Positions 1 through 16,197 of a DNA stretch of 32,000 nucleotides are shown here, piece by piece. Source of the DNA: Candidatus Saccharimonadota bacterium. GTDB lineage: Bacteria > Bacillota_I > Bacilli_A > Mycoplasmatales > Hepatoplasmataceae. Position 1 is the stretch's first letter. The number at the start of each line of letters is the position of its first letter. The notes under the pieces are model-generated. The model was not told the DNA's origin and made no database searches. It saw nothing but the letters and a program-made list of their open reading frames with translations. A program made the translations under genes and the position numbers. The DNA lies in contig AP027133.1 in the NCBI GenBank assembly GCA_027925325.1, forward strand, positions 540,001-572,000, written 5' to 3'.

Positions 1-1
1 T

Positions 2-658
2 GAAGCAAAAAAATATTTAGATGAAGAAATAAAAGAATTTATCGATAAACTAATTGAACTAGAAAATAGTTTTAAAAAAATTAAAGAATTTATAATTTCT
101 AAAAAATATAGCTTTACGCAAGAAAATAAAAAAAGTGAAATTTACAAAAATCTTAATTTAAATCAAATTACAAAAGAATATATTGATCAGATTTTTAATA
201 ATGAATGAAACCACTATCATAATTATGAAAAATGAATCGATGTATTTAACGATATTTTAAAAAATATCAAAATCTATTTAAATCAAAAAAAGCAAAATAA
301 ATTAAAATTAATATCACTACAAGAAAAAATAAATGCAAAAATTAATCAATTTAATGATAATCTTAAAAATCAAAAATTAAAGATTGAAAATAATGATGAA
401 AAAAATATTATTTTATTTTTACAAAATAAAAATAATTTAATTAAGCAAGAAATATATAATATTGAAGAAGAATATAGAAATTTAGATTACGATAATCTAG
501 AGAAATATATCGTAGATTATAAAGAAAAAATAAATCAAATATCTCAAAATACAAATGTATATCTAATTAATAAATACTATATGTGAGATCGAAAATTTGA
601 TTATGAGCGAGATAATTCAAACTATACTAGCTATTTTGTTGATTGCTTATTTAGTTAA
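2..658 (+). CDS. 3' part of a Lys/Asn/Glu-rich, coiled-coil-like hypothetical protein (5' end lies outside the window)
   Basis: Frame 2 is open from the window edge to TAA at 656-658. It has three in-frame TGA codons (NNEWNH, EKWID, YMWDR) and no TAA/TAG. The composition is heptad-like and K/E/N/I-rich. No recognisable catalytic motif. Confidence 0.6.
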
Positions 659-698
659 AATTATTTATTTATAAAAAAGAATTAAAAGGAGTTAATTA

Positions 699-992
699 AT
701 GGAAAAAGAAAATTTTTCTTGGGATGAAAAAAGAAAGATCTGAGAAAAACAATACGGCAATAGATTAACAGGGTATGATATTTTTGGTCGATTTGTTGGA
801 AGATGCGGTCTTGAGGTTTATCATATTCTTCCTAAATCAAGGGGTGGAAAAACAGTAATTGAAAATGCAATAATTTTGAGTCCAGCTTCGAATCGAGAAA
901 AAGGAGAAAAATTACACGGAATTATAAATAAAAAATATTTTCAAGTATTAAATATCGGAAACGGAATTGGTAAGATAATTATCAATCAATAA
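699..992 (+). CDS. mini HNH-like protein, paralogue 1 (97 aa; His kept, preceding Asp replaced by Tyr)
   Basis: ATG at 699 lies 7 nt after AAGGAG (686-691). Translation: MEKENFSWDEKRKIWEKQYGNRLTGYDIFGRFVGRCGLEVYHILPKSRGGKTVIENAIILSPASNREKGEKLHG... This matches the HNH pattern [DE]V(D)HI.P.S.GG....N...L....N..K. One internal TGA=Trp. Stop TAA at 990-992. Confidence 0.75.
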
Positions 993-1016
993 ATTTATTA
1001 TTAAGGAGTTAAATAA

Positions 1017-1343
1017 ATGGAAAGTAATATTGAAAGTGATATTTTTTCTAAAGCAGGAAAGAAAGCAATTTGAAAAAAACAATTTGGAACACATTTTACA
1101 GGATATGATTCTTTTGGCAGATTTGTTAGTCAATGCTGTTCTGATACAAAATGTTGCTCAAGTGTTTCTTTAGTTCTTCCAAAAACTTATGGAGGAAAAG
1201 AAATTTTTGAAAATGCAATGATTTTGCATCCAAAATCATTAGAAGAAAAAAGTGATAAATTGCACGGAATTATAAATAAAAAATATTTCCGAATTATAAA
1301 TAATCAAGATGGAACAGGCAGATTAATTGTTAATAATAAATAA
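1017..1343 (+). CDS. mini HNH-like protein, paralogue 2 (108 aa; catalytic His and Asn positions lost, probably inactive)
   Basis: It has the same RBS context as paralogue 1 (TTAAGGAGTTAAATAAATG). The N-terminus (AIWKKQFGTHFTGYDSFGRFV) and C-terminus (KLHGIINKKYFRIINN) are homologous to paralogue 1. The core reads SLVLPKTYGGKEIFENAMILHPKSLEEKSD, with V-L where D/Y-H is expected (1173-1178). Stop TAA at 1341-1343. Confidence 0.7.
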
Positions 1344-1360
1344 ATTAATTTTGATGAAAT

Positions 1361-1392
1361 AAAAAGCACGTTAATAAAGAACGTGCTTTTTC
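1361..1392 (+). terminator. rho-independent terminator after the tandem HNH pair
   Basis: Stem AGCACGT (1365-1371) pairs with ACGTGCT (1381-1387). The loop is 9 nt and a T-run follows. Confidence 0.7.
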
Positions 1393-1467: not shown

Positions 1468-2853
1468 ATGAAAAAATACTATGCTATATTTTTGATTCCA
1501 CTAATTGGCGTTATGCCTATTAATAGAAATATTAGTGAAAAAAATATCTCAGCAGAACAAACTGTAATTACTGATTTTTCAGCAGGCGGGCATCATTCTG
1601 GAATAATTGTTGATACAGATAATGATTATTATGCTGACACTCTTTATATGTGAGGTGATAATGAATATGGAGAAATTGGAAATGGTAAGAATTTTGAAAC
1701 TGTTAGTACACCGCAAATAATAGATTATGATTTTAAAGGTAATTTAATCAATCTTGAGCTTGGAGTAATTCATTCTGGCGTTACAGTTGATTCTGATTAT
1801 GATGGATATGCCGATACCCTTTATATGTGAGGTGATAATGATTTTGGTCAAGTTGGAAATGGTACTAGCGGAGATGAAAATATGTCTGTTTCACCAGAAA
1901 AAATTACTCCTGAAGATCAAGACAATTGAAACGGTAATATCGTTGACTTATCATTATCAGCAATGAATACCTCTGTTAGTATCGATACAGATTATGATGG
2001 ATATGCTGATACCTTATATGTATGAGGATCAGATATGGATGGACAGATTGGAAATGAAAGCATTATAAATGTATTATATCCAACTATAATCACACCAAGT
2101 GAAAAAGATAGTTGAGAAGGTAATATAATTGATGTCTCTTTAGATGGTTATAGTAGCGGCGTTACAATTGATTCTGATTATGATGGATATGCTGATACAT
2201 TGTATATGTGAGGAAGAAATAATTATGGACAGATCGGAAATGATAGTTTTGCCAACACATATTTACCAACGATAATTACTCCTAAAAATCAAACTAATTG
2301 AAGTGGAAATATTATTGATTTTGATTTAGGAACAGAACATGCTGGACTAACAATTGATTCTGATTATGATGGATATGCCGATACCTTGTATATGTGAGGT
2401 GATAATTATTATGGACAATCAGGAAATGGAACCTTTGGACCTGATTATGAATACTTAACTACTCCGCAATTGATAAATTTTAATTTCAATGGAAATATTA
2501 TTGATATCTCTTTAGGTGGAACACATAGTGCTGTAATTACCGATTCAAATTCAGATAACTATGCTGACACTCTATATGTATGAGGAAATAGTTATTTTGG
2601 ACAAGTAGGGGATGGGACTTCAAGAATTACAAATCAAGAAACTCCGCTTATTATCACTCCTAAAGATCAAGATAATTGAAATGGTAATATCTTAAAATTA
2701 TCACTTGGTTTTAATACAACAGGAGTTGTAATTGATCAAAATAATGATAATTTAGGTGATACATTATATATGTGAGGACAAAATTCATTCTATGAATGTG
2801 GAAATCCCAATTTAGAAGTATATTATCCTGAAATCACAATAAATTTTTTATAA
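1468..2853 (+). CDS. secreted or membrane-anchored RCC1-like (regulator of chromosome condensation repeat) seven-bladed beta-propeller protein, 461 aa
   Basis: GGA-rich RBS (AAGAAGGA) upstream. The N-terminus is hydrophobic (MKKYYAIFLIPLIGVMPI). Seven repeats of ~60-65 aa each carry D.D.DGYADTLYMWG.N..GQ.GNG, the RCC1 signature W-G-x-N-x-x-G-Q-x-G. Every repeat Trp is encoded by TGA. Stop TAA at 2851-2853. Confidence 0.85.
1586..2790 (+). repeat. seven intragenic tandem coding repeats (period 179-195 nt) of the RCC1-like gene
   Basis: The core GATTCTGATTATGATGGATATGC[CT]GATAC..T.TATATGTGAGG recurs near 1607, 1786, 1981, 2167, 2353, 2539 and 2731. Copies 2, 4 and 5 are nearly identical at the DNA level. 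Confidence 0.85.
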
Positions 2854-3272: not shown

Positions 3273-3305
3273 AAAAAAAAGAATCCTAATTTAGGATTCT
3301 TTTTC
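3273..3305. terminator. bidirectional rho-independent terminator between convergent genes
   Basis: Stem GAATCCTA (3281-3288) pairs with TAGGATTC (3292-3299). An A8 run lies on one side and a T-run on the other. Confidence 0.8.
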
Positions 3306-3320
3306 TATTGTTAATTTTAA

Positions 3321-3611
3321 TTATTTAACATTTATTTTAATTTTTCCATTCCTTTTATTTTTGATTTTAAATTTTTTTCCATTAACATAACCAGATAAAT
3401 TATCTGCTTTTTCTCAATTTGATAATGGATGCAATGGTTGAGCATTTTTTATTATTGTTTTTCCGCCTTTAGATTTAGGAAAAATATGATCAACTTCAAA
3501 ATTATCTTCAGTAATATTTCTTCCAAATAAATCAATTCCAGAATTAGAATTTCCATAATTTTCTTTTCAAATTGTATTTCTTTGACTTTTTTTAAAGTTA
3601 CGATTTGGCAT
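3321..3611 (-). CDS. mini HNH endonuclease, paralogue 3 (96 aa, canonical D-H...N...N motif intact)
   Basis: Reverse-strand translation: MPNRNFKKSQRNTIWKENYGNSNSGIDLFGRNITEDNFEVDHIFPKSKGGKTIIKNAQPLHPLSNWEKADNLSGYVNGKKFKIKNKRNGKIKINVK. The D-H pair lies at 3486-3491. RBS GGGGTG/AAAGGGG is just upstream (3614-3622). Length is 291 nt = 97 codons including TAA. Confidence 0.8.
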
Positions 3612-3708
3612 ATAATCACCCCTTTATTTTAATTCTAAATTATTGATATAAATAATTTAAAATTTATTATAAATTAAATATATAAAAAGTATAAATAAAG
3701 AGATTATA

Positions 3709-5370
3709 ATGAAAGATTTTACTATTAGTAAAGGTTTTTCAATAGATTTGATTGCAAAAGATGATGATTATAAATTAATAAATTTAGGCAAAGAATTTAT
3801 TGAAAAATTAGAAGATGAATACAAAAAATATAAAGATAATTTAAAAAAAGAAATAAAAAAATTTGAAAAATATGCTCAAGATGAAAATGTATATTTCTCA
3901 CAAGAAAAATTATTAAAGAAATCACCATTAACAATTTTAAATGCACCTTGAGGAAGTGGGAAGACATACTTTATTGAATCATTTGCAAAGCATTTTATTG
4001 ATAAGGAAATAAAATTAAAAACCTTTAAAAAAATAATTATATTAGATGTTTGAAAATATTCAAATTCAAAAAAAATTCCAGATGAAATAATTTCAGAATT
4101 ATTTTCCATATTGATTAATAAAACTAGAAAAGAAAAATTAAAAGAAAATTTAAAAAAATTTTCAATTAATTTTTTTATAAATCCTTTTTTAGTATCATGG
4201 GCAAATTATTTTTTAAAAGCTAAAATTAAAGAAATTCAAATAAGCAAAAATGAATTAAACAAACTTGTAAACGATATTTCAAATGATATTGATCATACTT
4301 TAATAATATTTGACAATATTGAAAGAATAGGAAAATATTCTTGAGAAGTGATAAAAGCAATATTCAAAATTTCTCAAATTGACAAATTATGTTTTATTTT
4401 GCCAATGAATATTAATAAATTAAATGATAATGATAAATATATTGAATATCCAATTGAAAAATATATTGATTTGCCAATATTTAATTTCAAGCAAGATTAT
4501 CTATCTTTTTTAAGAAACAAAAATTTAAATGAAGATGAGGCAATTTTAATAAACAAAATATTAAATACTGAAAGAAATGGAGAAAAATTATCAATTAGAA
4601 AAGTAGAACAAAGATTTAGAAGTTTAAATATTTTAAATATAAATGATAAATATGAAAAAATAAAATTTATTTTAAAAAATATTTGACCTGTATATAATGA
4701 AGGAGATGATTATTTTAAAAAAGAAATTTTAGAATATCACTGTTTTTTTAAGGAAAAAAATTATATTTTTGAGGATTTTAAAAATATCATTTTTTCAAAT
4801 GAAGATTTGAAACAAAATAAATTTTTTAAATCAAAATATGAATCTATTAATAAATATTTAGATGATTTAATATTAAATTTAAGATCAGAGAAAATTGATT
4901 TAAAAAAAGACTGATTAGATATTTTTTCTAAAATTTATTCAGAAATAAATGGTATTTGAAAAAAGAATACCTTAACTAAAAATAATTTGGATAAAGAAAT
5001 AAAAGAGAAATTAAAAAAATTAGATATTATTGAAAAACGAGAAAATGAATTAAATTTAAATGACAATGAAAAAATTTTAAAAAATGGAGAAAAAATAAAT
5101 AATATAATTAAAATTAATTTTAATTTGCAGGAATTAAATAATATGATAAATTCATTACCCATTTATAGAAATAAATGATATTTGAGTGAAATAGAACGTT
5201 TAAAAGAATTAAAAAATGATTTTAAAAAATTAGAAAATAAAAATTCAAGTTATACAAATTTAGATATTATTAAAAGTTGGAATTTATTAAATTTTGATAA
5301 TATGTATGAAGATGAAAAAATCGTTAGATTAATAACAAAAAATATGATAGATAATTGAAATAAACAATAA
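3709..5370 (+). CDS. KAP-family P-loop NTPase, 553 aa
   Basis: Four ORF-track fragments (3709, 4111, 4348, 4987) share one frame and are joined by TGA=Trp. Walker A is LNAPWGSGKTYF (GSGKT at 3952-3966; the Trp TGA at 3949-3951 splits the P-loop in the standard-code track). A hydrophobic insert (FSINFFINPFLVSWANYFL) lies between the Walker motifs. Walker B is LIIFDNIER (4300-4326), the KAP-type hhhhDDLDR. The C-terminal half is long and K/N/E-rich. Stop TAA at 5368-5370. Confidence 0.8.
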
Positions 5371-5394
5371 TTATTAAAAAATTTTATTAATAAA

Positions 5395-8893: not shown

Positions 8894-10753
8894 TTATATA
8901 TAACTAATTTCTAAATTTTCTTTGTCATAATGCTTTATTCCATTTCAAGTATCCTTATTACGATAATGTCAAAATGTTATTCCATTCATAAAATCTTTAT
9001 TAAGATTTAATTTTATCTCATTTGTTAGTTTTTTATCAATAGTATAAAAAACGCCTGAAGATTTTATGAAATTAAATCAATATCTTGAATCTAAATAATT
9101 TTCAATATTTTTTATTTGATCTAATCTATATCCATATTGATAAAAATAATCTCATAAAGAAATTTCTTCATTTTTATTTAAACTATACTTATTTAATTTT
9201 CAACTATAATTTGCTTCCCCATTTAAATATGAAGTAAAAAAATCTCCTGAAGATTTTGGTGAATTAAAAATAATAGAATTTTCTTTTAAATTATTTAATC
9301 TATTTTCTACTAAATCATTAGCCAAATTAAATATTCCTTCTTCAAAATCCTTTGTACCTTTTAAAAATAATTTATAATTTTTGCTTATAGAGCCAAAAAT
9401 CATTTCTCCTATTCCTGAACCAGTCTCAATAAAATCTGATAAAAATGCTGTTCTTTGATTAGATTTTGATTTTTCTAAAATTTCATTAAAAGAAGTAGTT
9501 TTTTGTGGATATTCATTATCAGAAATTACTGCATATGGATTAATATTACAAGTACTAGAAAAATTAGAATTTGGCATACTTTCAAGATAAATATTAGAAT
9601 TATGAGTTGAAGGATTTAATGAAAATGTAAATTTTAAAGATAATGGATATTTTTCTGGATAAGGACTTTTTATATAAATAGGATCATATTGAATTGAATT
9701 ATTACCATTTGTAGTTTCGATTACATAATATTGAAAAGGAGCTAAAAATAATTTATGCTCAAAGATAATATTTTTATCATCCATATATGAATTCGCAGTA
9801 ATTAAAAAATTATGAATATCAATAGGTTCAGTTTTGGCCATTTCTTTATTAGAATAAAATTTTGATACAAAAAATTTTCCTGATTTTGAAATTATAAATC
9901 CATCCTCTTCAATTATCGAAATAACTAAATTATCAGTTTCATTTTTATTAATTGCAAATTTATCAGGATATAATGGCGATTCTAAAATATGAAAACTTAC
10001 AAAATTTACTTCTTTTAAATCATTTATAAATGTATCTTTTACATTTACATCATTTATTATTGTATTATTTGAAAACTTATTTATTGGATAAAGATAAAAA
10101 TCATAATTTAATGGCAATTGATACATTTTTGATTGTGGAGATTCACTTTTATAAATTCCAATAATTCAAATAATGGAATTATTTATTACATCATTTCCAT
10201 ACCTAAAATTTGTTTTGATTTCTTCAATTTTGCTTAAATTTAAATTAAAATCTTCTCTTGTTGATAAATTATTTAAATTATTTCTTTCTAAATGAACTCT
10301 TTCTATCATTGTATAACCATTTAAAATAGTAGAAATTGGATAAGTTGTATAAATATCTAAATTTATAATGATGATAAATTCTTCCTTATTTAATCATTCA
10401 ATTTTTGAAACAAAATAAAATTTAAATAAATTATTTTGATTGATAATAATGTAATTTAAATTGCTAATACGTTCTTTTTTTTGATTAAGATCTTCTTCTA
10501 ATAAATAATCATTAATATTTAATTTTAATTTTGCTTGATAGGTATTATTTATAATTAAATCTTTTTCAATTCAATATCCATTATCTAAATTTTTAAAATC
10601 AAATTGATCATTAAAAATAACATAATTAATAAATTCATCTCGTTTTTTAAATGATTCATCTTTTGATTCTCCTGGAAAATCAATAACATTTTTATTAGAG
10701 ATATTATTTGTATCTCAAAAAATATTGTTTTTTGGTATTAAAATTTTTATCAT
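8894..10753 (-). CDS. Y1: hypothetical protein, 619 aa, paralogue of the Y2 core (no signal peptide or TM)
   Basis: ATG at 10753 is preceded by AGAGGG. The frame is open to TAA at 8894-8896 (codon-checked, TGA=Trp). The N-terminus MIKILIPKNN... and residues ~27-143 are nearly identical to Y2. The C-terminal WKLNKYSLN...LWDYF.QYGY...FWHYRNKDTWNGI block is shared with Y2. Confidence 0.8.
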
Positions 10754-10765
10754 GTTTTCCCTCTT

Positions 10766-13018
10766 CTATTTAATCCTTACTCATTTAGTAGTAAATAGGC
10801 CAGCTGAAATATTATTTTGTTCAGATGAATTTTTTGATGAATATGGAATTAATTTACCAACTTCATGATGTGATTGTCCTATTCTTATTATATTTTCTTC
10901 TAAATCATATCCATCAATATAACCGACAACATCAGAATCATCATTTATTCCTTCTGATTTATTATTACTTCCAACATAAGATTCTGCTAATTTATGTTTA
11001 TGGCATTTAACATTTCCTGAAGAAATAGTATTTAATTGACTTGTAATTGCCTGAATTGTTGTCATTCCTTCAGTAAAATTTTGATTATATTCATGCAATT
11101 TTATTCAAGTTCCCAAATATTTATCATTTAAATTTGGATCATAATTATTTATAAATTCTTTAATCGTTCCAATTACTTCATCTAGCGGATTTTTTTGTAT
11201 AAAATCAATTTCTGCATTTTCCAATTCATAATTATTAATTCCATTTCAAATTCGTTTATTTCGATAATGCCAAAAAAATATTCCACTTGTGAAATCTTTA
11301 TCAATCTTTAATTTAATTTCTTCCGATAAATTTCTATCAACCGATTTAAAAATATCGGTTGCTTTTAAATAATTAAATCAGAATCTTGAATTTAAGTAAT
11401 TTTTGATATTTTCTGTTTTATTTAATTTATAACCATATTTATGAAAATAATCTCATAAAGATTTTTCTTCTTCTATATTCAAACTATATTTATTTAATTT
11501 TCAACTATAAGTTTCATTATTTAATAAATATGAAATAAATAAATCTCCATTTATTTTACTTGAATTATCATATTTAAGATTATTCATATATTTTGAAATT
11601 TTACGTTTTTCTAATACGTTTGCTATTTGTGGAAATTTTTTTTTATTAAGCATTTGTGAATAAGCTTCTGATTTAGCATCTTTTAAAACATTTAGATATG
11701 ATATTGTTCTCTTTGGATATTCATTATCTTTTATTATTGAGTATTGATTAATATTTCAATTTGGATCGATTTCAATTTGACTTGAGAATTTTTCAAAATA
11801 AATACTACTTGTGTGAATTAAAGGATTTAAAGAAAAATTAAATCTTAAATGATCTTTACGTAATGCATTATTCCATCCTAATTGTAAAGGATCATAATCA
11901 ATTGAAGATTCACCATTAGTTGTTTCAATTTTATAAACTTGATAAGGAGCTAAATATAGTTTATGCTCAAAAATTACATTTTTATAAGATAAATATGAAT
12001 TAGATTGAAGTGAAAAATCATGAATAGATATTCCATCACTTCATCCCATTTCCCTATCTAAATCAAATCTTTTAATAAATAATTTTCCTCCTCTTAATTC
12101 AAAATTATTTTCATCTATATTTGATAGGGTGATAATAAAATCTGAATTAGAATCACTTGAGTTAACTCTCTTAATATTAATTGCATTAGGATATAGCGGT
12201 GATTCTAAAAGATAAAATCCGACAAATTTATCTTCTGTTTCTCCTCCACTAGTTAAACCAGTATCATTAAATAAAGCATTTTTTGTTTCAATATCATTTA
12301 TCATAATTTTTATGCTATCACCATTTTCTTGACCATTGGTTTTATAAATTGGATAAAGATAGTAATCATAATTTAATGGTAATGTCCCAATTTTTGTTGT
12401 CGGTGTTTCTTCTTTACATAATCCAATTATCCATATAATTGAATTACTAATTATGTTATCGCCGTATTTAAAATCAACAGGAATTTTTTCCACTTTGCTT
12501 AATTCAAAAGAAAAATCTTCTCTTATTTGTAATTTATCTAAATCTGTTCTTTTTAAATGAGCTCGATCAATCATTGCATCACCATCTAAAATAGTAGAAA
12601 TAGGATAAGTTGTATAAATATCTAAATTTATCATAATGATAAATTCTTCGTTATTTAATCATTCAATTTTTGAGACAAAATAAAATTTAAATGAATTATT
12701 TTGATTGATAATGATGTAATTTAGATTGCTAATACGTTCTTGTTTTTGATTAAAATCTTCTTCTAATAGGTAATCATTAATATTTAATTTCAATGTTGCT
12801 TGATAGGTATTATTTATAATTAAATCTTTTTCAATTCAATATCCATTATCTAAATTTTTAAAATCAAATTGATCATCAAAAATAACATAATTAATAAATT
12901 CATCTCGTTTTTTTAATGATTCATCTTTTGATTCTCCTGGAAAACTTATCGCATGTTTTTCTATATTATCATCTGAAAATCAATAAGCATTGTTTTTAGG
13001 AATTAAAATTTTTACCAT
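10766..13018 (-). CDS. Y2-X': hypothetical protein, 750 aa; Y-family core fused in frame to a second copy of the X C-terminal domain
   Basis: ATG at 13018. ORF-track fragments 12041-12634 and 10781-11098 are in the same frame. I checked every codon in 11099-12040 and 12635-13018 and found no TAA/TAG. The Y-type C-terminal block ends ...FWHYRNKRIWNGINNYELENAEIDFI. It continues QKNPLDEVIGTIKEFINNYDPN...AGLFTTKWVRIK, which is homologous to X residues ~75-209. Stop TAG at 10766-10768. Confidence 0.75.
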
Positions 13019-13020
13019 TA

Positions 13021-13650
13021 TTATTTAATCCTTACTCATTTAACGGTAAATAATCCGGCTGCAAAATTATTTTGTTCAGATGAATTTTTTAATGAATATG
13101 GAATTAATTTACCAACTTCATCATGCGATTGTCCTATTCTTACTATGTTTCCTTCTGAATCATAACCATCGATATAACCGACAACATCAGAATCATCATT
13201 TGTCCCTTCAGATTTATCATTACTTCCAACATATGCTTCTGCTAATTTATGCGTATGACCCTTAACACTTCCTGAAGAAATAGTATTTGCCTCATTTGTA
13301 ACTATTTGAATTGTTGTCATTCCTTCAATAAAATTTTGATTATATTCATGCAATTTTACTCAAGTTCCTAAATATTTATCATTAATATTTGGATCATAAT
13401 CATTTATAAATTCCTTAATTGTTCCGATTGCTTCATCAATTAAAAAAATTTCTTCTGATAAAATGATGTATTTATGATTATCTTTTGAAATTAAGATCTC
13501 TTTATTTGCTTTATTTAATTTTAAAAAATATTCTAATTTATGATTTGTTAATTTAAAAATTGAATTAACGTCATCGTTTTTTACATTCTTAATTTCTCAA
13601 TCCGAAAGTAAGAAAGATTGTTTATTTTGATAATTAATTTTAATCTTCAT
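13021..13650 (-). CDS. X: hypothetical protein, 209 aa, with a conserved His/Glu-rich C-terminal domain (HxHKLAE...GQSHxEVGKLIPYS)
   Basis: ATG at 13650 lies 9 nt after AAGGAG (13663-13668 on the reverse strand). The frame is open with TGA=Trp. It ends ...AGLFTVKWVRIK, TAA at 13021-13023, 2 nt before the Y2 start. The ORF-track fragment 13036-13353 is its C-terminal part. Confidence 0.8.
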
Positions 13651-15020: not shown

Positions 15021-15096
15021 TGGTGGTTCAGGACGGAATCGAACCGCCGACACAGGGATCTTCAATCCCTTGCTCTACCGACTGAGCTACTGAACC
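15021..15096 (-). tRNA. tRNA-Phe (GAA)
   Basis: Reverse complement GGTTCAGTAGCTCAGTCGGTAGAGCAAGGGATTGAAGATCCCT...GGTTCGATTCC...CTGAACCACCA. Anticodon loop TTGAAGA. CCA encoded. Confidence 0.95.
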
Positions 15097-15106
15097 TAAA
15101 AACAAC

Positions 15107-15182
15107 TGGCGGTCCTGACGGGATTTGAACCCGCGATCTCCTCTGTGACAGAGAGGCATGATGACCACTTCACTACAGGACC
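15107..15182 (-). tRNA. tRNA-Asp (GUC)
   Basis: Reverse complement GGTCCTGTAGTGAAGTGG...CCTCTCTGTCACAGAGG...GGTTCAAATCC...CAGGACCGCCA. Anticodon GTC. Confidence 0.95.
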
Positions 15183-15183
15183 T

Positions 15184-15260
<77 letters not shown>

Positions 15261-15268
15261 ATAAATAA

Positions 15269-15361
15269 TGGTGGAGATGGAGGGATTCGAACCCCCGCAC
15301 GACTTGCGCCGTCTCTCGGTTTTCAAGACCGATCCCTTCAACCAGACTTGGGTACATCTCC
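15269..15361 (-). tRNA. tRNA-Ser (UGA), long variable arm
   Basis: Reverse complement GGAGATGTACCCAAGTCTGGTTGAAGGGATCGGTCTTGAAAACCGA + variable arm + GGTTCGAATCC...CTCCACCA. Anticodon TGA. Length 93 nt. Confidence 0.95.
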
Positions 15362-15369
15362 ATTTGATG

Positions 15370-15446
15370 TGGTGGTCCGTGCTGGACTTGAACCAGCGAC
15401 CAACCGGTTATGAGCCGGTGGCTCTAACCAACTGAGCTAACGGACC
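15370..15446 (-). tRNA. tRNA with CAU anticodon, probably tRNA-Ile2 (lysidine-modified)
   Basis: Reverse complement GGTCCGTTAGCTCAGTTGGTTAGAGCCACCGGCTCATAACCGGT...GGTTCAAGTCC...GGACCACCA. It is called Ile rather than Met only from its position in the conserved Met-Ile-Ser-fMet order. Confidence 0.7.
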
Positions 15447-15452
15447 AAATAT

Positions 15453-15529
15453 TGGTAGCGGAAGAGGGACTTGAACCCCCGACCCATTGAATATGAACCA
15501 ATTGCTCTAACCAACTGAGCTATTCCGCC
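15453..15529 (-). tRNA. elongator tRNA-Met (CAU)
   Basis: Reverse complement GGCGGAATAGCTCAGTTGGTTAGAGCAATTGGTTCATATTCAAT...GGTTCAAGTCC...CCGCTACCA. Anticodon CAT. Confidence 0.8.
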
Positions 15530-15535
15530 TTATAA

Positions 15536-15611
15536 TGGTGGAGCGAACGAGATTCGAACTCGCGACCCCATGCGTGCAAAGCATGTGCTCTACCAACTGA
15601 GCTATCACCCC
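15536..15611 (-). tRNA. tRNA-Ala (UGC)
   Basis: Reverse complement GGGGTGATAGCTCAGTTGGTAGAGCACATGCTTTGCACGCATG...GTTCGAATC...CGCTCCACCA. G3:U70 pair present. Anticodon TGC. Confidence 0.95.
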
Positions 15612-15614
15612 ACA

Positions 15615-15691
15615 TGGTCGGAAAGACAAGACTTGAACTTGCGACCCCTGCGTCCCAAACGCAGTGCTCTGCCAAACTGAGCTACTTTCCG
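15615..15691 (-). tRNA. tRNA-Pro (UGG)
   Basis: Reverse complement CGGAAAGTAGCTCAGTTTGGCAGAGCACTGCGTTTGGGACGCAG...GTTCAAGTC...TTTCCGACCA. Anticodon TGG. Confidence 0.95.
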
Positions 15692-15696
15692 ATATT

Positions 15697-15773
15697 TGGC
15701 GCGCCTGATAGGAGTCGAACCCACAACCCTCTGATCCGTAGTCAGATACTCTATCCAGTTGAGCTACAGGCGC
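15697..15773 (-). tRNA. tRNA-Arg (ACG)
   Basis: Reverse complement GCGCCTGTAGCTCAACTGGATAGAGTATCTGACTACGGATCAGA...GGTTCGACTCC...CAGGCGCGCCA. Anticodon ACG. Confidence 0.95.
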
Positions 15774-15791
15774 CTTTATATAAAATAAAAT

Positions 15792-15876
15792 TGGTGCGGG
15801 TGAAGGGACTTGAACCCTTACGTCCGAAGACACTAGATCCTAAGTCTAGCGTGTCTGCCAATTCCACCACACCCGC
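15792..15876 (-). tRNA. tRNA-Leu (UAG), long variable arm
   Basis: Reverse complement GCGGGTGTGGTGGAATTGGCAGACACGCTAGACTTAGGATCTAG + variable arm + GGTTCAAGTCC...CACCCGCACCA. Anticodon TAG. Confidence 0.95.
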
Positions 15877-15880
15877 AAAT

Positions 15881-15956
15881 TGGTGCCGTCGATAGGAATC
15901 GAACCTACGACCCACTGATTACAAGTCAGTTGCTCTGCCTGCTGAGCTACAACGGC
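15881..15956 (-). tRNA. tRNA-Thr (UGU)
   Basis: Reverse complement GCCGTTGTAGCTCAGCAGGCAGAGCAACTGACTTGTAATCAGT...GGTTCGATTCC...GACGGCACCA. Anticodon TGT. Confidence 0.95.
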
Positions 15957-15959
15957 TAA

Positions 15960-16035
15960 TGGTGGGGCATATAGGACTTGAACCTATGACCTCCTGCTTG
16001 TAAGGCAGATGCTCTCCCAACTGAGCTAATACCCC
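15960..16035 (-). tRNA. tRNA-Val (UAC)
   Basis: Reverse complement GGGGTATTAGCTCAGTTGGGAGAGCATCTGCCTTACAAGCAGA...GGTTCAAGTCC...TGCCCCACCA. Anticodon TAC. Confidence 0.95.
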
Positions 16036-16042
16036 AAAATAT

Positions 16043-16118
16043 TGGTGACCCATACGGGATTTGAACCCGTGCATGCTAGGATGAAAACCTAGTGTGTTAA
16101 CCTCTTCACCAATGGGCC
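16043..16118 (-). tRNA. tRNA-Glu (UUC)
   Basis: Reverse complement GGCCCATTGGTGAAGAGGTTAACACACTAGGTTTTCATCCTAG...GGTTCAAATCC...ATGGGTCACCA. Anticodon TTC. Confidence 0.95.
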
Positions 16119-16122
16119 TAAA

Positions 16123-16197
16123 TGGCGCTCCGGAGAGGATTCGAACCTCCGACCAACTGGTTAACAGCCAGCTGCTCTACCACTGAGCTACCAGAGC
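16123..16197 (-). tRNA. tRNA-Asn (GUU)
   Basis: Reverse complement GCTCTGGTAGCTCAGTGGTAGAGCAGCTGGCTGTTAACCAGT...GGTTCGAATCC...CGGAGCGCCA. Anticodon GTT. It is first in the transcription order of the cluster. Confidence 0.95.

What the first reader, a model, noticed from the sequence alone, without database searches (positions are those of the whole stretch)
3321..5370. KAP P-loop NTPase divergently paired with an intact minimal HNH nuclease: defence-like two-gene candidate
A 553-aa KAP-family NTPase lies on the plus strand (Walker A APWGSGKT, hydrophobic insert, Walker B LIIFDNIER). A 96-aa HNH protein with an intact EVDHIFPKSKGGKT...N...SNWEKADN motif lies on the minus strand. The two start 97 nt apart and share a divergent AT-rich control region (3612-3708).

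Pairing an NTPase with an HNH nuclease is the logic of several anti-phage systems; Septu, with its ATPase and HNH nuclease, is the analogy. KAP NTPases are frequent in defence islands.

I do not know of a described KAP + mini-HNH system in Mollicutes, and divergent rather than operonic orientation is atypical. The standard-code ORF track hides the gene because a TGA Trp sits inside the P-loop itself (3949-3951).
Basis: partly seen in the sequence, partly recalled or inferred. Interest (0 to 1): 0.72.

Follow-up and report, generated by a model that had tools for sequence, protein, structure and literature searches.

The report
KAP NTPase beside small HNH nucleases
In a gut symbiont of woodlice, an ATPase from a family recently shown to block phages sits next to a tiny DNA-cutting enzyme; the two are neighbours only in this one bacterial lineage, so a joint defence role is plausible but unproven.

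Summary
The window is Candidatus Hepatoplasma scabrum (code 4). A 553-aa P-loop NTPase lies at 3709-5370(+) and a 96-aa HNH protein at 3321-3611(-). Their starts are 97 nt apart, and a TGA-Trp codon sits in the P-loop.

The NTPase belongs to the KAP family by homology, although Pfam's model misses it directly and it has no transmembrane insert. The small protein has an HNH fold with intact catalytic residues.

A second KAP gene (window 1-658) is followed by two more mini-HNH genes (699-992, 1017-1343). In six Hepatoplasma contigs a KAP gene is always followed by a catalytically dead, Cys-rich HNH paralogue under purifying selection.

The link does not generalise:
- 11 of 13 other Mollicutes KAP loci and all 28 distant ones lack an HNH.
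- Mini-HNH relatives elsewhere (L053-L055, and 42 metagenome loci with searchable flank) lack KAP.
- No PADLOC model matches, and the pair is not Septu.

Best reading: these are residents of a variable defence island next to ychF. The architecture resembles KAP NTPases recently validated as single-gene anti-phage proteins, with lineage-specific mini-HNH partners. Functional coupling is plausible but unproven. Interest is moderate.

The parts
1..658 (+). C-terminal 218 aa of a second KAP NTPase (KAP1, HPPSJP_4910 = P0004); the gene runs off the window start
   Evidence: The frame-2 translation is identical to the C-terminus of P0004. Stop codon at 656-658. P0004 carries PF07693.
699..992 (+). 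HNH_A: 97-aa mini-HNH paralogue with EVYH in place of EVDH (Asp to Tyr). It lies 40 nt after KAP1 and has an AAGGAG ribosome-binding site
   Evidence: Pfam HNH E=0.0016, below the gathering score. Family HMM E=2e-49. Its 3' half is about 75% nt identical to HNH_B (families D4/D5).
1017..1343 (+). HNH_B: 108-aa catalytically dead mini-HNH paralogue. The DH strand is replaced by QCCSDTKCCSSVSL and N65 is changed to Leu. It lies 24 nt after HNH_A
   Evidence: No Pfam hit. Orthologues lie 24-173 nt downstream of KAP1-type genes in L001, L002, L048, L177 and L178. dN/dS 0.27-0.45.
1361..1391 (+). Terminator-like hairpin closing the putative KAP1-HNH_A-HNH_B transcription unit
   Evidence: 12-pair stem followed by a T-run. 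Only 2 such sites in 6.2 kb, against 0.6 expected.
3276..3304 (.). Palindromic hairpin (A-run, 13-bp stem, T-run) between the convergent orf117 and HNH_C; probably a bidirectional terminator
   Evidence: sequence read.
3321..3611 (-). HNH_C: 96-aa standalone HNH (beta-beta-alpha-Me) nuclease with intact D41-H42, N56 and N65; strong ribosome-binding site AAAGGGGTGA
   Evidence: Pfam HNH 25.9 bits against a 21.4 cut-off. AlphaFold2 pLDDT 78, with the core above 90. Foldseek top hits are Gme HNH nickase 4h9d, EcoKMcrA and Cas9 HNH. Orthologue P0046 is 60% identical, dN/dS 0.49.
3612..3708 (.). 97-nt intergenic region (10% GC) between the divergent starts
   Evidence: Promoter-like hexamers are present on both strands but not above chance. 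No Rfam match.
3709..5370 (+). KAP2: 553-aa soluble KAP-family P-loop NTPase. NTPase domain about aa 10-325 (nt 3736-4683), with Walker A at nt 3943-3966 and Walker B at nt 4300-4326. Helical, coiled-coil-like C-terminal region aa 329-552 (nt 4693-5364)
   Evidence: Homologues E down to 1e-117, most carrying PF07693. It retains all 17 invariant family residues. AlphaFold2 model. Foldseek hits: RdrA, ORC/Cdc6, CED-4 and a giant-virus KAP protein. No transmembrane segment. The C-terminus gives only coiled-coil matches.

Best explanation
The flagged pair is one half of a paralogous KAP-NTPase / mini-HNH gene cluster. The cluster sits at the ychF edge of a variable, defence-type island in Hepatoplasma.

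**KAP2.** It is a soluble KAP-family P-loop NTPase with a confident N-terminal NTPase domain and a paralogue-specific helical C-terminal region. This is the same domain logic as KAP NTPases recently shown to act as single-gene anti-phage proteins. Most likely it is an NTP-driven, oligomerising switch whose C-terminal region senses or executes (inferred).

**HNH_C.** It is a standalone metal-dependent DNA nicking or cleaving enzyme of a widespread mini-HNH family. The fold and catalytic residues are shown; the activity is inferred.

**The link.** In the Hepatoplasma crinochetorum/scabrum clade, mini-HNH genes have been recruited next to KAP genes:
- A catalytically dead, Cys-rich paralogue (HNH_B type) is invariably co-directional and 24-173 nt downstream of the KAP1 lineage.
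- Intact copies sit 5' of a KAP gene in two genomes.

I think it most likely that this cluster is a lineage-specific conflict or defence module. In it the KAP NTPase would license or recruit mini-HNH subunits, with the dead paralogue acting as adaptor, DNA binder or inhibitor and the intact one as nuclease. The coupling of HNH_C with KAP2 specifically is the weakest, wholly inferred step.
For: **Recurrent adjacency in Hepatoplasma.**
- All three mini-HNH paralogues in the window flank the two KAP genes.
- HNH_B-type genes lie directly downstream of KAP1-type genes in 6 of 6 contigs: window, L001, L002, L048, L177, L178.
- Gaps are short, each gene has its own ribosome-binding site, and one terminator follows HNH_B.
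- An intact mini-HNH lies 137 nt upstream of, and co-directional with, KAP in L001.

**Selection.** dN/dS is 0.27-0.45 for HNH_B type, 0.49 for HNH_C type, 0.16-0.35 for KAP1 and 0.15-0.27 for ychF. All are maintained genes.

**Independent case.** An unrelated CxxC mini-HNH is divergent from a KAP, 241 nt away, in a Mycoplasma MAG (L008).

**Defence-island context.** GmrSD, Dcm, Tsp45I-like, N6_N4 methyltransferase and AAA_15/21 genes lie in the same interval of sister genomes. A GmrSD-like gene plus a methyltransferase lie next to KAP in L009.

**Literature.** KAP NTPase plus a variable C-terminal region gives validated anti-phage activity that needs both Walker B and the C-terminal region (PMC13552941). 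PifA is a KAP without transmembrane helices (PMC13001434).

**Structure.** The NTPase model is closest to RdrA of the RADAR defence system, ORC/Cdc6, CED-4 and a giant-virus KAP protein. HNH_C is closest to the Gme HNH nickase and McrA.
Against: - The six KAP1-HNH_B loci are orthologous and syntenic in genomes described as extensively collinear (PMC10928387). They count as about one evolutionary event.
- Other KAP lineages in Hepatoplasma lack an adjacent HNH: P0006/P0007 next to R-M-like genes, and P0008/P0009 between uvrA and a mannose-6-phosphate isomerase (PMI) gene.
- 11 of 13 other Mollicutes KAP loci and all 28 distant ones lack an HNH.
- The Williamsoniiplasma KAP sits between topoisomerase and recD2 genes. 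The Spiroplasma plasmid KAP has no HNH.
- Intact mini-HNH relatives occur without KAP: beside mnmG in L053, and as three copies beside type I R-M in L054.
- 0 of 42 metagenome loci with at least 1.5 kb of flank have a KAP. The KAP profile detects only 13 of 28 distant KAPs.
- The mini-HNH module is a broad family of 323 clusters at E<=1e-10, with other fusion partners.
- Two KAP1 loci (L002, L048) have no intact HNH, so an active nuclease is dispensable there.
- No PADLOC or NCBIfam model hits.
- HNH_C and KAP2 are divergent and look monocistronic.
Confidence: 0.42

Rival explanations
1. The two genes are independent neighbours. KAP2 is a self-contained single-gene NTPase, for defence or otherwise. 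HNH_C is an unrelated standalone nuclease gene that happens to reside in the same variable island. Adjacency in Hepatoplasma reflects shared ancestry and local tandem duplication, not joint function.
For: - Validated KAP defence proteins act as single genes (PMC13552941).
- Most KAP loci lack an HNH and most mini-HNH loci lack a KAP.
- The genes are divergently oriented, and HNH_C has its own ribosome-binding site and terminator.
- HNH_A and HNH_B are visibly tandem duplicates.
- The genomes are highly collinear (PMC10928387).
Against: - 6 of 6 HNH_B-type genes are linked to KAP1 with 24-173 nt gaps and are under purifying selection.
- Intact mini-HNH genes lie 5' of two different KAP paralogues in two genomes.
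- L008 is an independent HNH-KAP divergent pair.
Confidence: 0.36
2. The mini-HNH genes are selfish, homing-type or otherwise mobile nuclease genes that spread into variable regions. The multiple copies near KAP reflect insertion preference or tolerance, and the dead copies are decaying remnants.
For: - The family is multi-copy and sporadically distributed: 3 copies in the window, 3 in L054, single copies in unrelated contexts.
- The module is very widespread.
- There are weak PHROG HNH hits.
Against: - The dead HNH_B type is not decaying. It has a conserved ORF, a conserved Cys4 motif and dN/dS of 0.27-0.45 across six lineages.
- No intron, intein or disrupted target gene is present, and no terminal repeats.
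- There are essentially no phage relatives: 2 weak hits among 50,697 phage records.
- The 96-aa protein has no extra DNA-binding domain of the kind homing HNH enzymes carry.
Confidence: 0.1
3. The genes have a housekeeping or host-interaction role. The KAP paralogues would be NTPases for a cellular process such as chromosome, membrane or surface-protein handling, and the mini-HNH proteins would be repair or nutritional nucleases of a nucleotide-scavenging symbiont.
For: - The Williamsoniiplasma KAP lies between topoisomerase and recD2 genes. The H. vulgare KAP lies between uvrA and a mannose-6-phosphate isomerase (PMI) gene.
- The genome paper lists the HNH nucleases as being of unknown function, among many nucleases.
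- The neighbours include an RCC1-repeat secreted protein.
Against: - KAP copy number and C-terminal regions vary between close relatives.
- Positions are embedded among R-M, GmrSD and AAA_15/21 genes.
- There is no NCBIfam equivalog.
- Distribution across Mollicutes is patchy.
- The mini-HNH has no signal peptide (sequence read).
Confidence: 0.07
4. This is a bona fide Septu-type (PtuA ATPase plus PtuB HNH) system in divergent form.
For: Only the abstract logic of an ATPase next to an HNH protein.
Against: - No PADLOC PtuA or PtuB hit for either protein or for nine KAP homologues.
- The NTPase is KAP-type, not AAA_15/AAA_21.
- The genes are divergent, not operonic.
Confidence: 0.02

Closest known systems
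[quoted passage not shown]
   Same: Both have an N-terminal KAP-type NTPase domain with Walker A and B motifs, followed by a 200-300 aa region with no recognisable domain. That region differs between paralogues. Both occur in defence-island-like neighbourhoods.
   Different: - No transmembrane helices here; EF_KAP is modelled with two.
- Sequence relationship to EF_KAP was not tested.
- No activity data.
- Here there is lineage-specific linkage to mini-HNH genes, which that paper does not describe.
PifA of the F plasmid (KAP family, excludes phage T7)
   Same: It is a KAP-fold NTPase reported to lack transmembrane helices (PMC13001434), like the Hepatoplasma proteins. It acts in phage exclusion.
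   Different: No sequence-level comparison was done here. PifA has no described HNH partner. Its reported mechanism, membrane depolarisation and nucleotide leakage, is not inferable for a wall-less Mollicute protein with a coiled-coil tail.
Septu (PtuA ATPase + PtuB HNH)
   Same: An NTPase gene next to a small HNH nuclease gene.
   Different: - The ATPase class differs: KAP here, AAA_15/21 ABC-like in Septu.
- There is no model match.
- The orientation is divergent.
- Co-occurrence is not conserved beyond one lineage.
RADAR RdrA
   Same: It is the best solved-structure match of the NTPase model (Foldseek E 4e-4, probability 1.0). Both are ring-forming defence ATPases.
   Different: TM-scores are low (0.2-0.3). 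There is no sequence-level match, no PADLOC RdrA hit, and no RdrB deaminase partner.
Gme HNH nicking endonuclease (PDB 4h9d) and the McrA-type HNH domain
   Same: HNH_C is a standalone beta-beta-alpha-Me protein of about 100 aa. These are the top fold matches. It has a DH...N...N catalytic pattern.
   Different: - Only 21-28% identity.
- The Hepatoplasma family lacks the zinc-ribbon cysteines.
- It has a conserved N-terminal helix (xIWxKxFG) and a C-terminal beta-hairpin (GxxNGKxFxI).
- It has a catalytically dead, Cys4-bearing sister subfamily.
Tmn (YobI-family transmembrane NTPase defence)
   Same: It is a P-loop NTPase defence protein that is often mentioned together with KAP.
   Different: It belongs to a different family, YobI not KAP (PMC13001434). 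It has two transmembrane helices inside the P-loop domain, which are absent here. There is no PADLOC hit.

Membership tests
KAP P-loop NTPase (Pfam PF07693) | Match to the family profile | tested here: inconclusive
   The query itself has no PF07693 hit at E<=1 or at 0.001. However, 24 of 27 aligned homologues hit it (best E 2.3e-17), and the query matches those homologues at E down to 1e-117. Membership is by transitive homology.
KAP P-loop NTPase (Pfam PF07693) | Walker A GxxGxGK[ST], and Walker B hhhhD[DN]xxR with a trailing Arg | tested here: met
   APWGSGKT is aa 79-86 and LIIFDNIER is aa 198-206. W81, G82, G84, K85, D202, N203, E205 and R206 are invariant across 27 family members.
KAP P-loop NTPase (Pfam PF07693) | Transmembrane helices associated with or inserted in the NTPase domain | tested here: not met
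   The maximum 19-residue Kyte-Doolittle value between Walker A and B is 1.09. No window exceeds 1.6 in the query or in 8 of 9 homologues. This feature is not universal, because PifA lacks transmembrane helices (PMC13001434).
KAP P-loop NTPase (Pfam PF07693) | AAA+/STAND-like additional-strand P-loop fold | tested here: met
   The AlphaFold2 NTPase domain has pLDDT mostly 85-95. Foldseek hits include RdrA, ORC/Cdc6, CED-4 and TRIP13. The top viral-library hit is annotated 'KAP family P-loop domain protein' (E 9.8e-4).
Validated anti-phage KAP NTPases (EF_KAP class, PMC13552941) | KAP NTPase domain followed by a required C-terminal region of unknown function | tested here: met
   The architecture is met. 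The NTPase spans aa 10-325, followed by a helical region at aa 329-552 with no domain hit. The C-terminal region differs between paralogues. Whether it is required is unknown.
Validated anti-phage KAP NTPases (EF_KAP class, PMC13552941) | Protection against phage that depends on Walker B | not testable with these tools
   This needs recoded expression and phage challenge.
Septu (PtuA + PtuB) | PtuA-type AAA_15/AAA_21 ATPase | tested here: not met
   No PADLOC PtuA hit. Pfam shows a KAP family with only weak AAA_22/AAA_16 matches, and no AAA_15/21.
Septu (PtuA + PtuB) | PtuB-type HNH encoded in an operon with the ATPase | tested here: not met
   No PADLOC PtuB hit; only weak generic REase/Cas9 HNH matches. 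The genes are divergent.
HNH (beta-beta-alpha-Me) endonuclease, PF01844 | Profile match above the gathering score | tested here: met
   HNH_C scores 25.9 bits against a 21.4 cut-off. HNH_A scores 19.0, below the cut-off. HNH_B has no hit.
HNH (beta-beta-alpha-Me) endonuclease, PF01844 | Catalytic His on beta-1, structural Asn, metal-ligand Asn/His on the helix; beta-beta-alpha fold | tested here: met
   D41-H42, N56 and N65 are present. In the model the strands are at 39-42 and 57-60 and the helix at 62-71. The top fold hits are all HNH enzymes. In HNH_B the DH and N65 are lost.
HNH (beta-beta-alpha-Me) endonuclease, PF01844 | Metal-dependent nuclease activity | not testable with these tools
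   This needs purified protein.
HNH homing endonuclease | Residence in an intron or intein, or as a free-standing phage gene next to a cleavage target; extra DNA-binding modules | tested here: not met
   - No split host gene and no repeats around it.
- No domain other than HNH in 96 aa.
- Only 2 weak matches among 50,697 phage records.
RADAR (RdrA + RdrB) | RdrA ATPase with an adjacent RdrB deaminase | tested here: not met
   There is only a low-TM structural resemblance to RdrA. There is no PADLOC RdrA hit, and no deaminase gene next to KAP2.

The most novel reading that the evidence does not exclude
Hepatoplasma carries a previously undescribed multi-part conflict system with three components. 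A soluble KAP NTPase acts as the NTP-driven switch. A catalytically dead, Cys4-bearing HNH paralogue acts as its obligate adaptor or inhibitor. An intact 96-aa mini-HNH acts as the licensed nuclease. This would be an NTPase-gated nuclease built from an active/dead HNH paralogue pair, and it would be the first defence system beyond R-M and CRISPR recognised in this Mollicutes family.
Probability: 0.2. Interest if true: 0.6.

Novelty: new variant of a known kind. Interest (0 to 1): 0.4.

Why it matters
KAP NTPases were proposed as defence proteins in 2004 but validated only in 2026, and how they work is unknown.

A minimal-genome lineage offers a compact natural system for asking what a KAP NTPase controls. 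It keeps two or three transmembrane-less KAP paralogues, one of them tightly linked to a conserved dead-HNH protein and to optional active mini-HNH genes.

For Hepatoplasma biology, this would add candidate defence genes to an inventory that currently lists only R-M and CRISPR-Cas9 (PMC10928387).

The practical point also matters: these genes are invisible unless table 4 is used. If the genes turn out to be independent neighbours, the finding is an ordinary defence-island annotation.

Tried and rejected
- **Septu membership.** Rejected: no PADLOC hit and the wrong ATPase class.
- **Tmn.** I recalled Tmn as a KAP protein. The literature says it belongs to the YobI family, so I dropped it as a family assignment.
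- **Transmembrane KAP.** Rejected by hydropathy.
- **Phage origin of the mini-HNH.** Only two weak mycobacteriophage matches.
- **Mobile-element boundaries.** The repeat search shows only RCC1 repeats, the HNH_A/HNH_B duplication and AT-rich noise.
- **Regulatory RNA in the region.** No Rfam match.
- **Shared divergent promoter.** Hexamer matches are at chance level, so nothing can be concluded.
- **Literature search for a described KAP+HNH pairing.** The hits were author-name artefacts.
- **Original KAP paper.** Aravind et al. 2004 is not held in the library.
- **Hand-typed DNA pattern.** It had the wrong spacing.
- **Strict 126-nt pattern.** It found nothing in the metagenome contigs.
- **Context look-up for KAP1 (P0004).** Not on record, so the H. 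scabrum sequence upstream of the window was not seen.
- **AlphaFold-database fold search.** The afdb50 library was unavailable.
- **PDB sequence search with the KAP profile.** It gave only compositional coiled-coil hits.
Full report
**Observation.** The window has about 20% GC and uses TGA as Trp. Under table 4, a 553-aa ORF lies at 3709-5370(+) and a 96-aa ORF at 3321-3611(-). Both are identical to deposited proteins HPPSJP_4970 and HPPSJP_4960 of the metagenome-assembled genome of Candidatus Hepatoplasma scabrum, a hepatopancreas symbiont of the isopod Porcellio scaber.

- Walker A APWGSGKT, with W81 encoded by the TGA at 3949-3951.
- Walker B LIIFDNIER.
- HNH motif EVDHIFPKSKGGKT...N...SNWEKADN.
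- A 97-nt, 10%-GC gap between the divergent starts.

The NTPase gene has eight TGA codons and the HNH gene has two, which explains why standard-code ORF calling misses them.

**What the two proteins are.** Pfam's KAP_NTPase model does not hit the 553-aa protein directly. Its homologues (E down to 1e-117) mostly carry PF07693, and 24 of 27 aligned family members hit it. The query keeps all 17 invariant family residues.

The AlphaFold2 model has a confident NTPase domain (aa 10-325) and a low-confidence all-helical C-terminal third. Solved-structure neighbours are RdrA of RADAR, ORC/Cdc6, CED-4 and TRIP13. The best viral-library neighbour is annotated as a KAP-family protein. The C-terminal region gives only coiled-coil-type matches.

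The 'hydrophobic insert' is not a membrane segment. The maximum 19-residue hydropathy is 1.09, and the Hepatoplasma homologues are equally soluble. The literature notes that PifA is also a KAP without transmembrane helices.

The 96-aa protein passes Pfam's HNH threshold. It models as a beta-beta-alpha-Me fold with pLDDT above 90 in the core. It is closest to the 97-aa Gme HNH nickase, EcoKMcrA and Cas9 HNH domains. D41-H42, N56 and N65 are intact.

The ORF running off the window start (1-658) is the C-terminus of a second KAP NTPase, HPPSJP_4910. Forty nt later comes HNH_A (699-992; EVYH instead of EVDH). Another 24 nt later comes HNH_B (1017-1343), followed by a terminator hairpin at 1361-1391.

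HNH_B has lost the catalytic DH and N65, and carries a CCSDTKCCS insert instead. So the window holds two KAP genes and three mini-HNH paralogues within 5.4 kb. HNH_A and HNH_B are tandem duplicates in their 3' halves. A palindromic hairpin at 3276-3304 separates the convergent orf117 and HNH_C, and HNH_C has a strong ribosome-binding site, so it looks monocistronic.

**Comparative evidence for a link.** The interval next to ychF is syntenic in other Hepatoplasma genomes:
- In a Logan contig (L001) the order is intact mini-HNH (60% identical to HNH_C), then KAP, then dead HNH_B-type, then a coiled-coil ORF, then ychF.
- In H. crinochetorum Ps (L002) and another Logan contig (L048) the order is KAP, then HNH_B-type, then the coiled-coil ORF, then ychF.
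- Two more HNH_B-type genes (L177, L178) lie 36 and 24 nt after KAP1-type genes.

This makes 6 of 6 HNH_B-type genes KAP1-linked. They are maintained genes, with dN/dS of 0.27-0.45, against 0.16-0.35 for KAP1 and 0.15-0.27 for ychF. HNH_C against its L001 orthologue gives 0.49.

The KAP in the finding (KAP2) is a species-specific paralogue. It shares about 60% identity with the others, over the N-terminal 350 aa only.

Upstream of these KAP genes, the sister genomes carry GmrSD, Dcm and N6/N4 methyltransferases, a Tsp45I-like gene and an AAA_15/21 ATPase. This marks a variable defence island.

Outside Hepatoplasma there are two further cases. One Mycoplasma MAG (L008) has an unrelated CxxC mini-HNH of 91 aa, divergent from a KAP 241 nt away. 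Another (L009) has a GmrSD-like DUF262-HNH gene plus a methyltransferase beside its KAP.

**Comparative evidence against an obligate pair.**
- Other Hepatoplasma KAP lineages have no adjacent HNH. P0006/P0007 sit next to R-M-like genes. P0008/P0009 sit between uvrA and a mannose-6-phosphate isomerase (PMI) gene, with a short HNH-like gene 4-5 kb away.
- Of 13 KAP loci from other Mollicutes, only L008 and L009 have an HNH. None of the 28 distant KAP loci does.
- The Williamsoniiplasma KAP lies between topoisomerase and recD2 genes. A Spiroplasma plasmid KAP has no HNH.
- In the reverse direction, the closest intact mini-HNH relatives outside Hepatoplasma sit beside mnmG (L053), or as three paralogous copies beside a type I R-M system (L054). 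Neither has a KAP.
- An exhaustive profile search shows the mini-HNH module is widespread, with 323 clusters at E<=1e-10. It occurs standalone, tandemly repeated, or fused to other domains.
- In 65 metagenome loci with such an ORF, 42 of which have at least 1.5 kb of flank, no KAP was found. The KAP profile recovers only 13 of 28 distant KAPs.
- Two KAP1 loci lack any intact HNH nearby.
- No PADLOC or NCBIfam model matches either protein or nine KAP homologues.

**Mechanism and comparison with known systems.**

Shown:
- A KAP-type NTPase with intact motifs and a variable helical tail.
- A structurally and catalytically intact mini-HNH.
- A co-conserved dead HNH paralogue downstream of the KAP1 lineage.
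- A defence-island setting.

Inferred:
- The KAP NTPase is an NTP-driven oligomeric switch. This follows the recently validated KAP anti-phage proteins, in which Walker B and the C-terminal region are both required (PMC13552941).
- Mini-HNH proteins are recruited partners in this lineage, with the dead one as adaptor or inhibitor and the intact one as nuclease.

The system is not Septu: the ATPase class is wrong and there is no model hit. It is not Tmn, which is YobI family. It is not RADAR, because the resemblance to RdrA is only structural and no deaminase is present.

The published genome paper lists only R-M and CRISPR-Cas9 as defences. It mentions HNH nucleases of unknown function, up to three per genome.

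**Verdict.** The stronger linkage is between the other KAP paralogue and a dead HNH.

I put about 0.42 on a functionally linked conflict module, 0.36 on independent neighbours, and the rest on selfish-nuclease or housekeeping readings. Novelty is a new variant of a known kind, and interest is moderate (0.4).

Noticed in passing
window 1-1391: A second KAP NTPase gene (its C-terminus, HPPSJP_4910) is followed on the same strand by two mini-HNH paralogues (HNH_A, HNH_B) and a terminator hairpin. This is probably an operon that the finding did not mention.
   Followed up: yes
window 1017-1343; L001 10282-10605; L002 9679-10011; L048 9718-10068; L177 755-1090; L178 1453-1815: A catalytically dead HNH subfamily has a conserved CCSxxKCCS insert in place of the DH strand. 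It is always found 24-173 nt downstream of KAP1-type genes and is under purifying selection. Its role, and any metal bound by the Cys4 motif, are unknown.
   Followed up: partly
window 1468-2853 (+): A 461-aa protein has an N-terminal signal-like hydrophobic segment and RCC1/RLD beta-propeller repeats (Pfam E 1e-55; six ~186-nt DNA repeats). This is unusual for a bacterium with a minimal genome, and it may be a host-interaction protein.
   Followed up: no
window 8894-13650 (-): Two paralogous large ORFs (619 and 750 aa, with near-identical N-termini) match a PHROG tail protein (E 5e-11). The H. crinochetorum orthologue carries phi29_gp9_C. The adjacent 209-aa ORF repeats the C-terminal ~140 aa of the 750-aa protein. 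These are phage-tail-derived genes conserved across species.
   Followed up: partly
window 15021-16197 (-): A tight cluster of 14 tRNA genes, including three tRNA-Met, produces the only GC-rich kilobase (51%) in the window.
   Followed up: no
window 5371-5394: Only 24 nt separate the stop codons of the convergent KAP2 and ychF genes, and no terminator-like hairpin was detected between them.
   Followed up: no
L001 2850-7924: Upstream of the HNH-KAP genes in a sister Hepatoplasma contig lie GmrSD, a Dcm methyltransferase, and a 209-aa/205-aa pair. By eye, this pair reads like a minimal nucleotidyltransferase plus a HEPN protein (R-x4-H motif RNKINH). This part of the island is absent from H. 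scabrum within the window.
   Followed up: no
L054 6286-9779: Another code-4 assembly (GCA_947313745) has three intact mini-HNH paralogues within 3.5 kb next to type I R-M genes, plus a 265-aa protein with its own HNH-like motif. There is no KAP. This shows that the mini-HNH family tends to amplify locally.
   Followed up: partly
L008 5409-7524: An uncultured Mycoplasma MAG has a 91-aa CxxC-type HNH, unrelated to the Hepatoplasma family, divergent from a 532-aa KAP 241 nt away. It is flanked by a deaminase-like gene and a large helicase. This may be an independent origin of the same pairing.
   Followed up: partly
proteins P0074, P0080, P0090, P0099: The mini-HNH module also occurs as 2-4 tandem repeats within single proteins, some with His to Tyr changes. 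It also occurs fused C-terminally to TrkA_N/TrkA_C domains and to an uncharacterised ~220-aa domain (motif CVLLNTYLKYYF).
   Followed up: no
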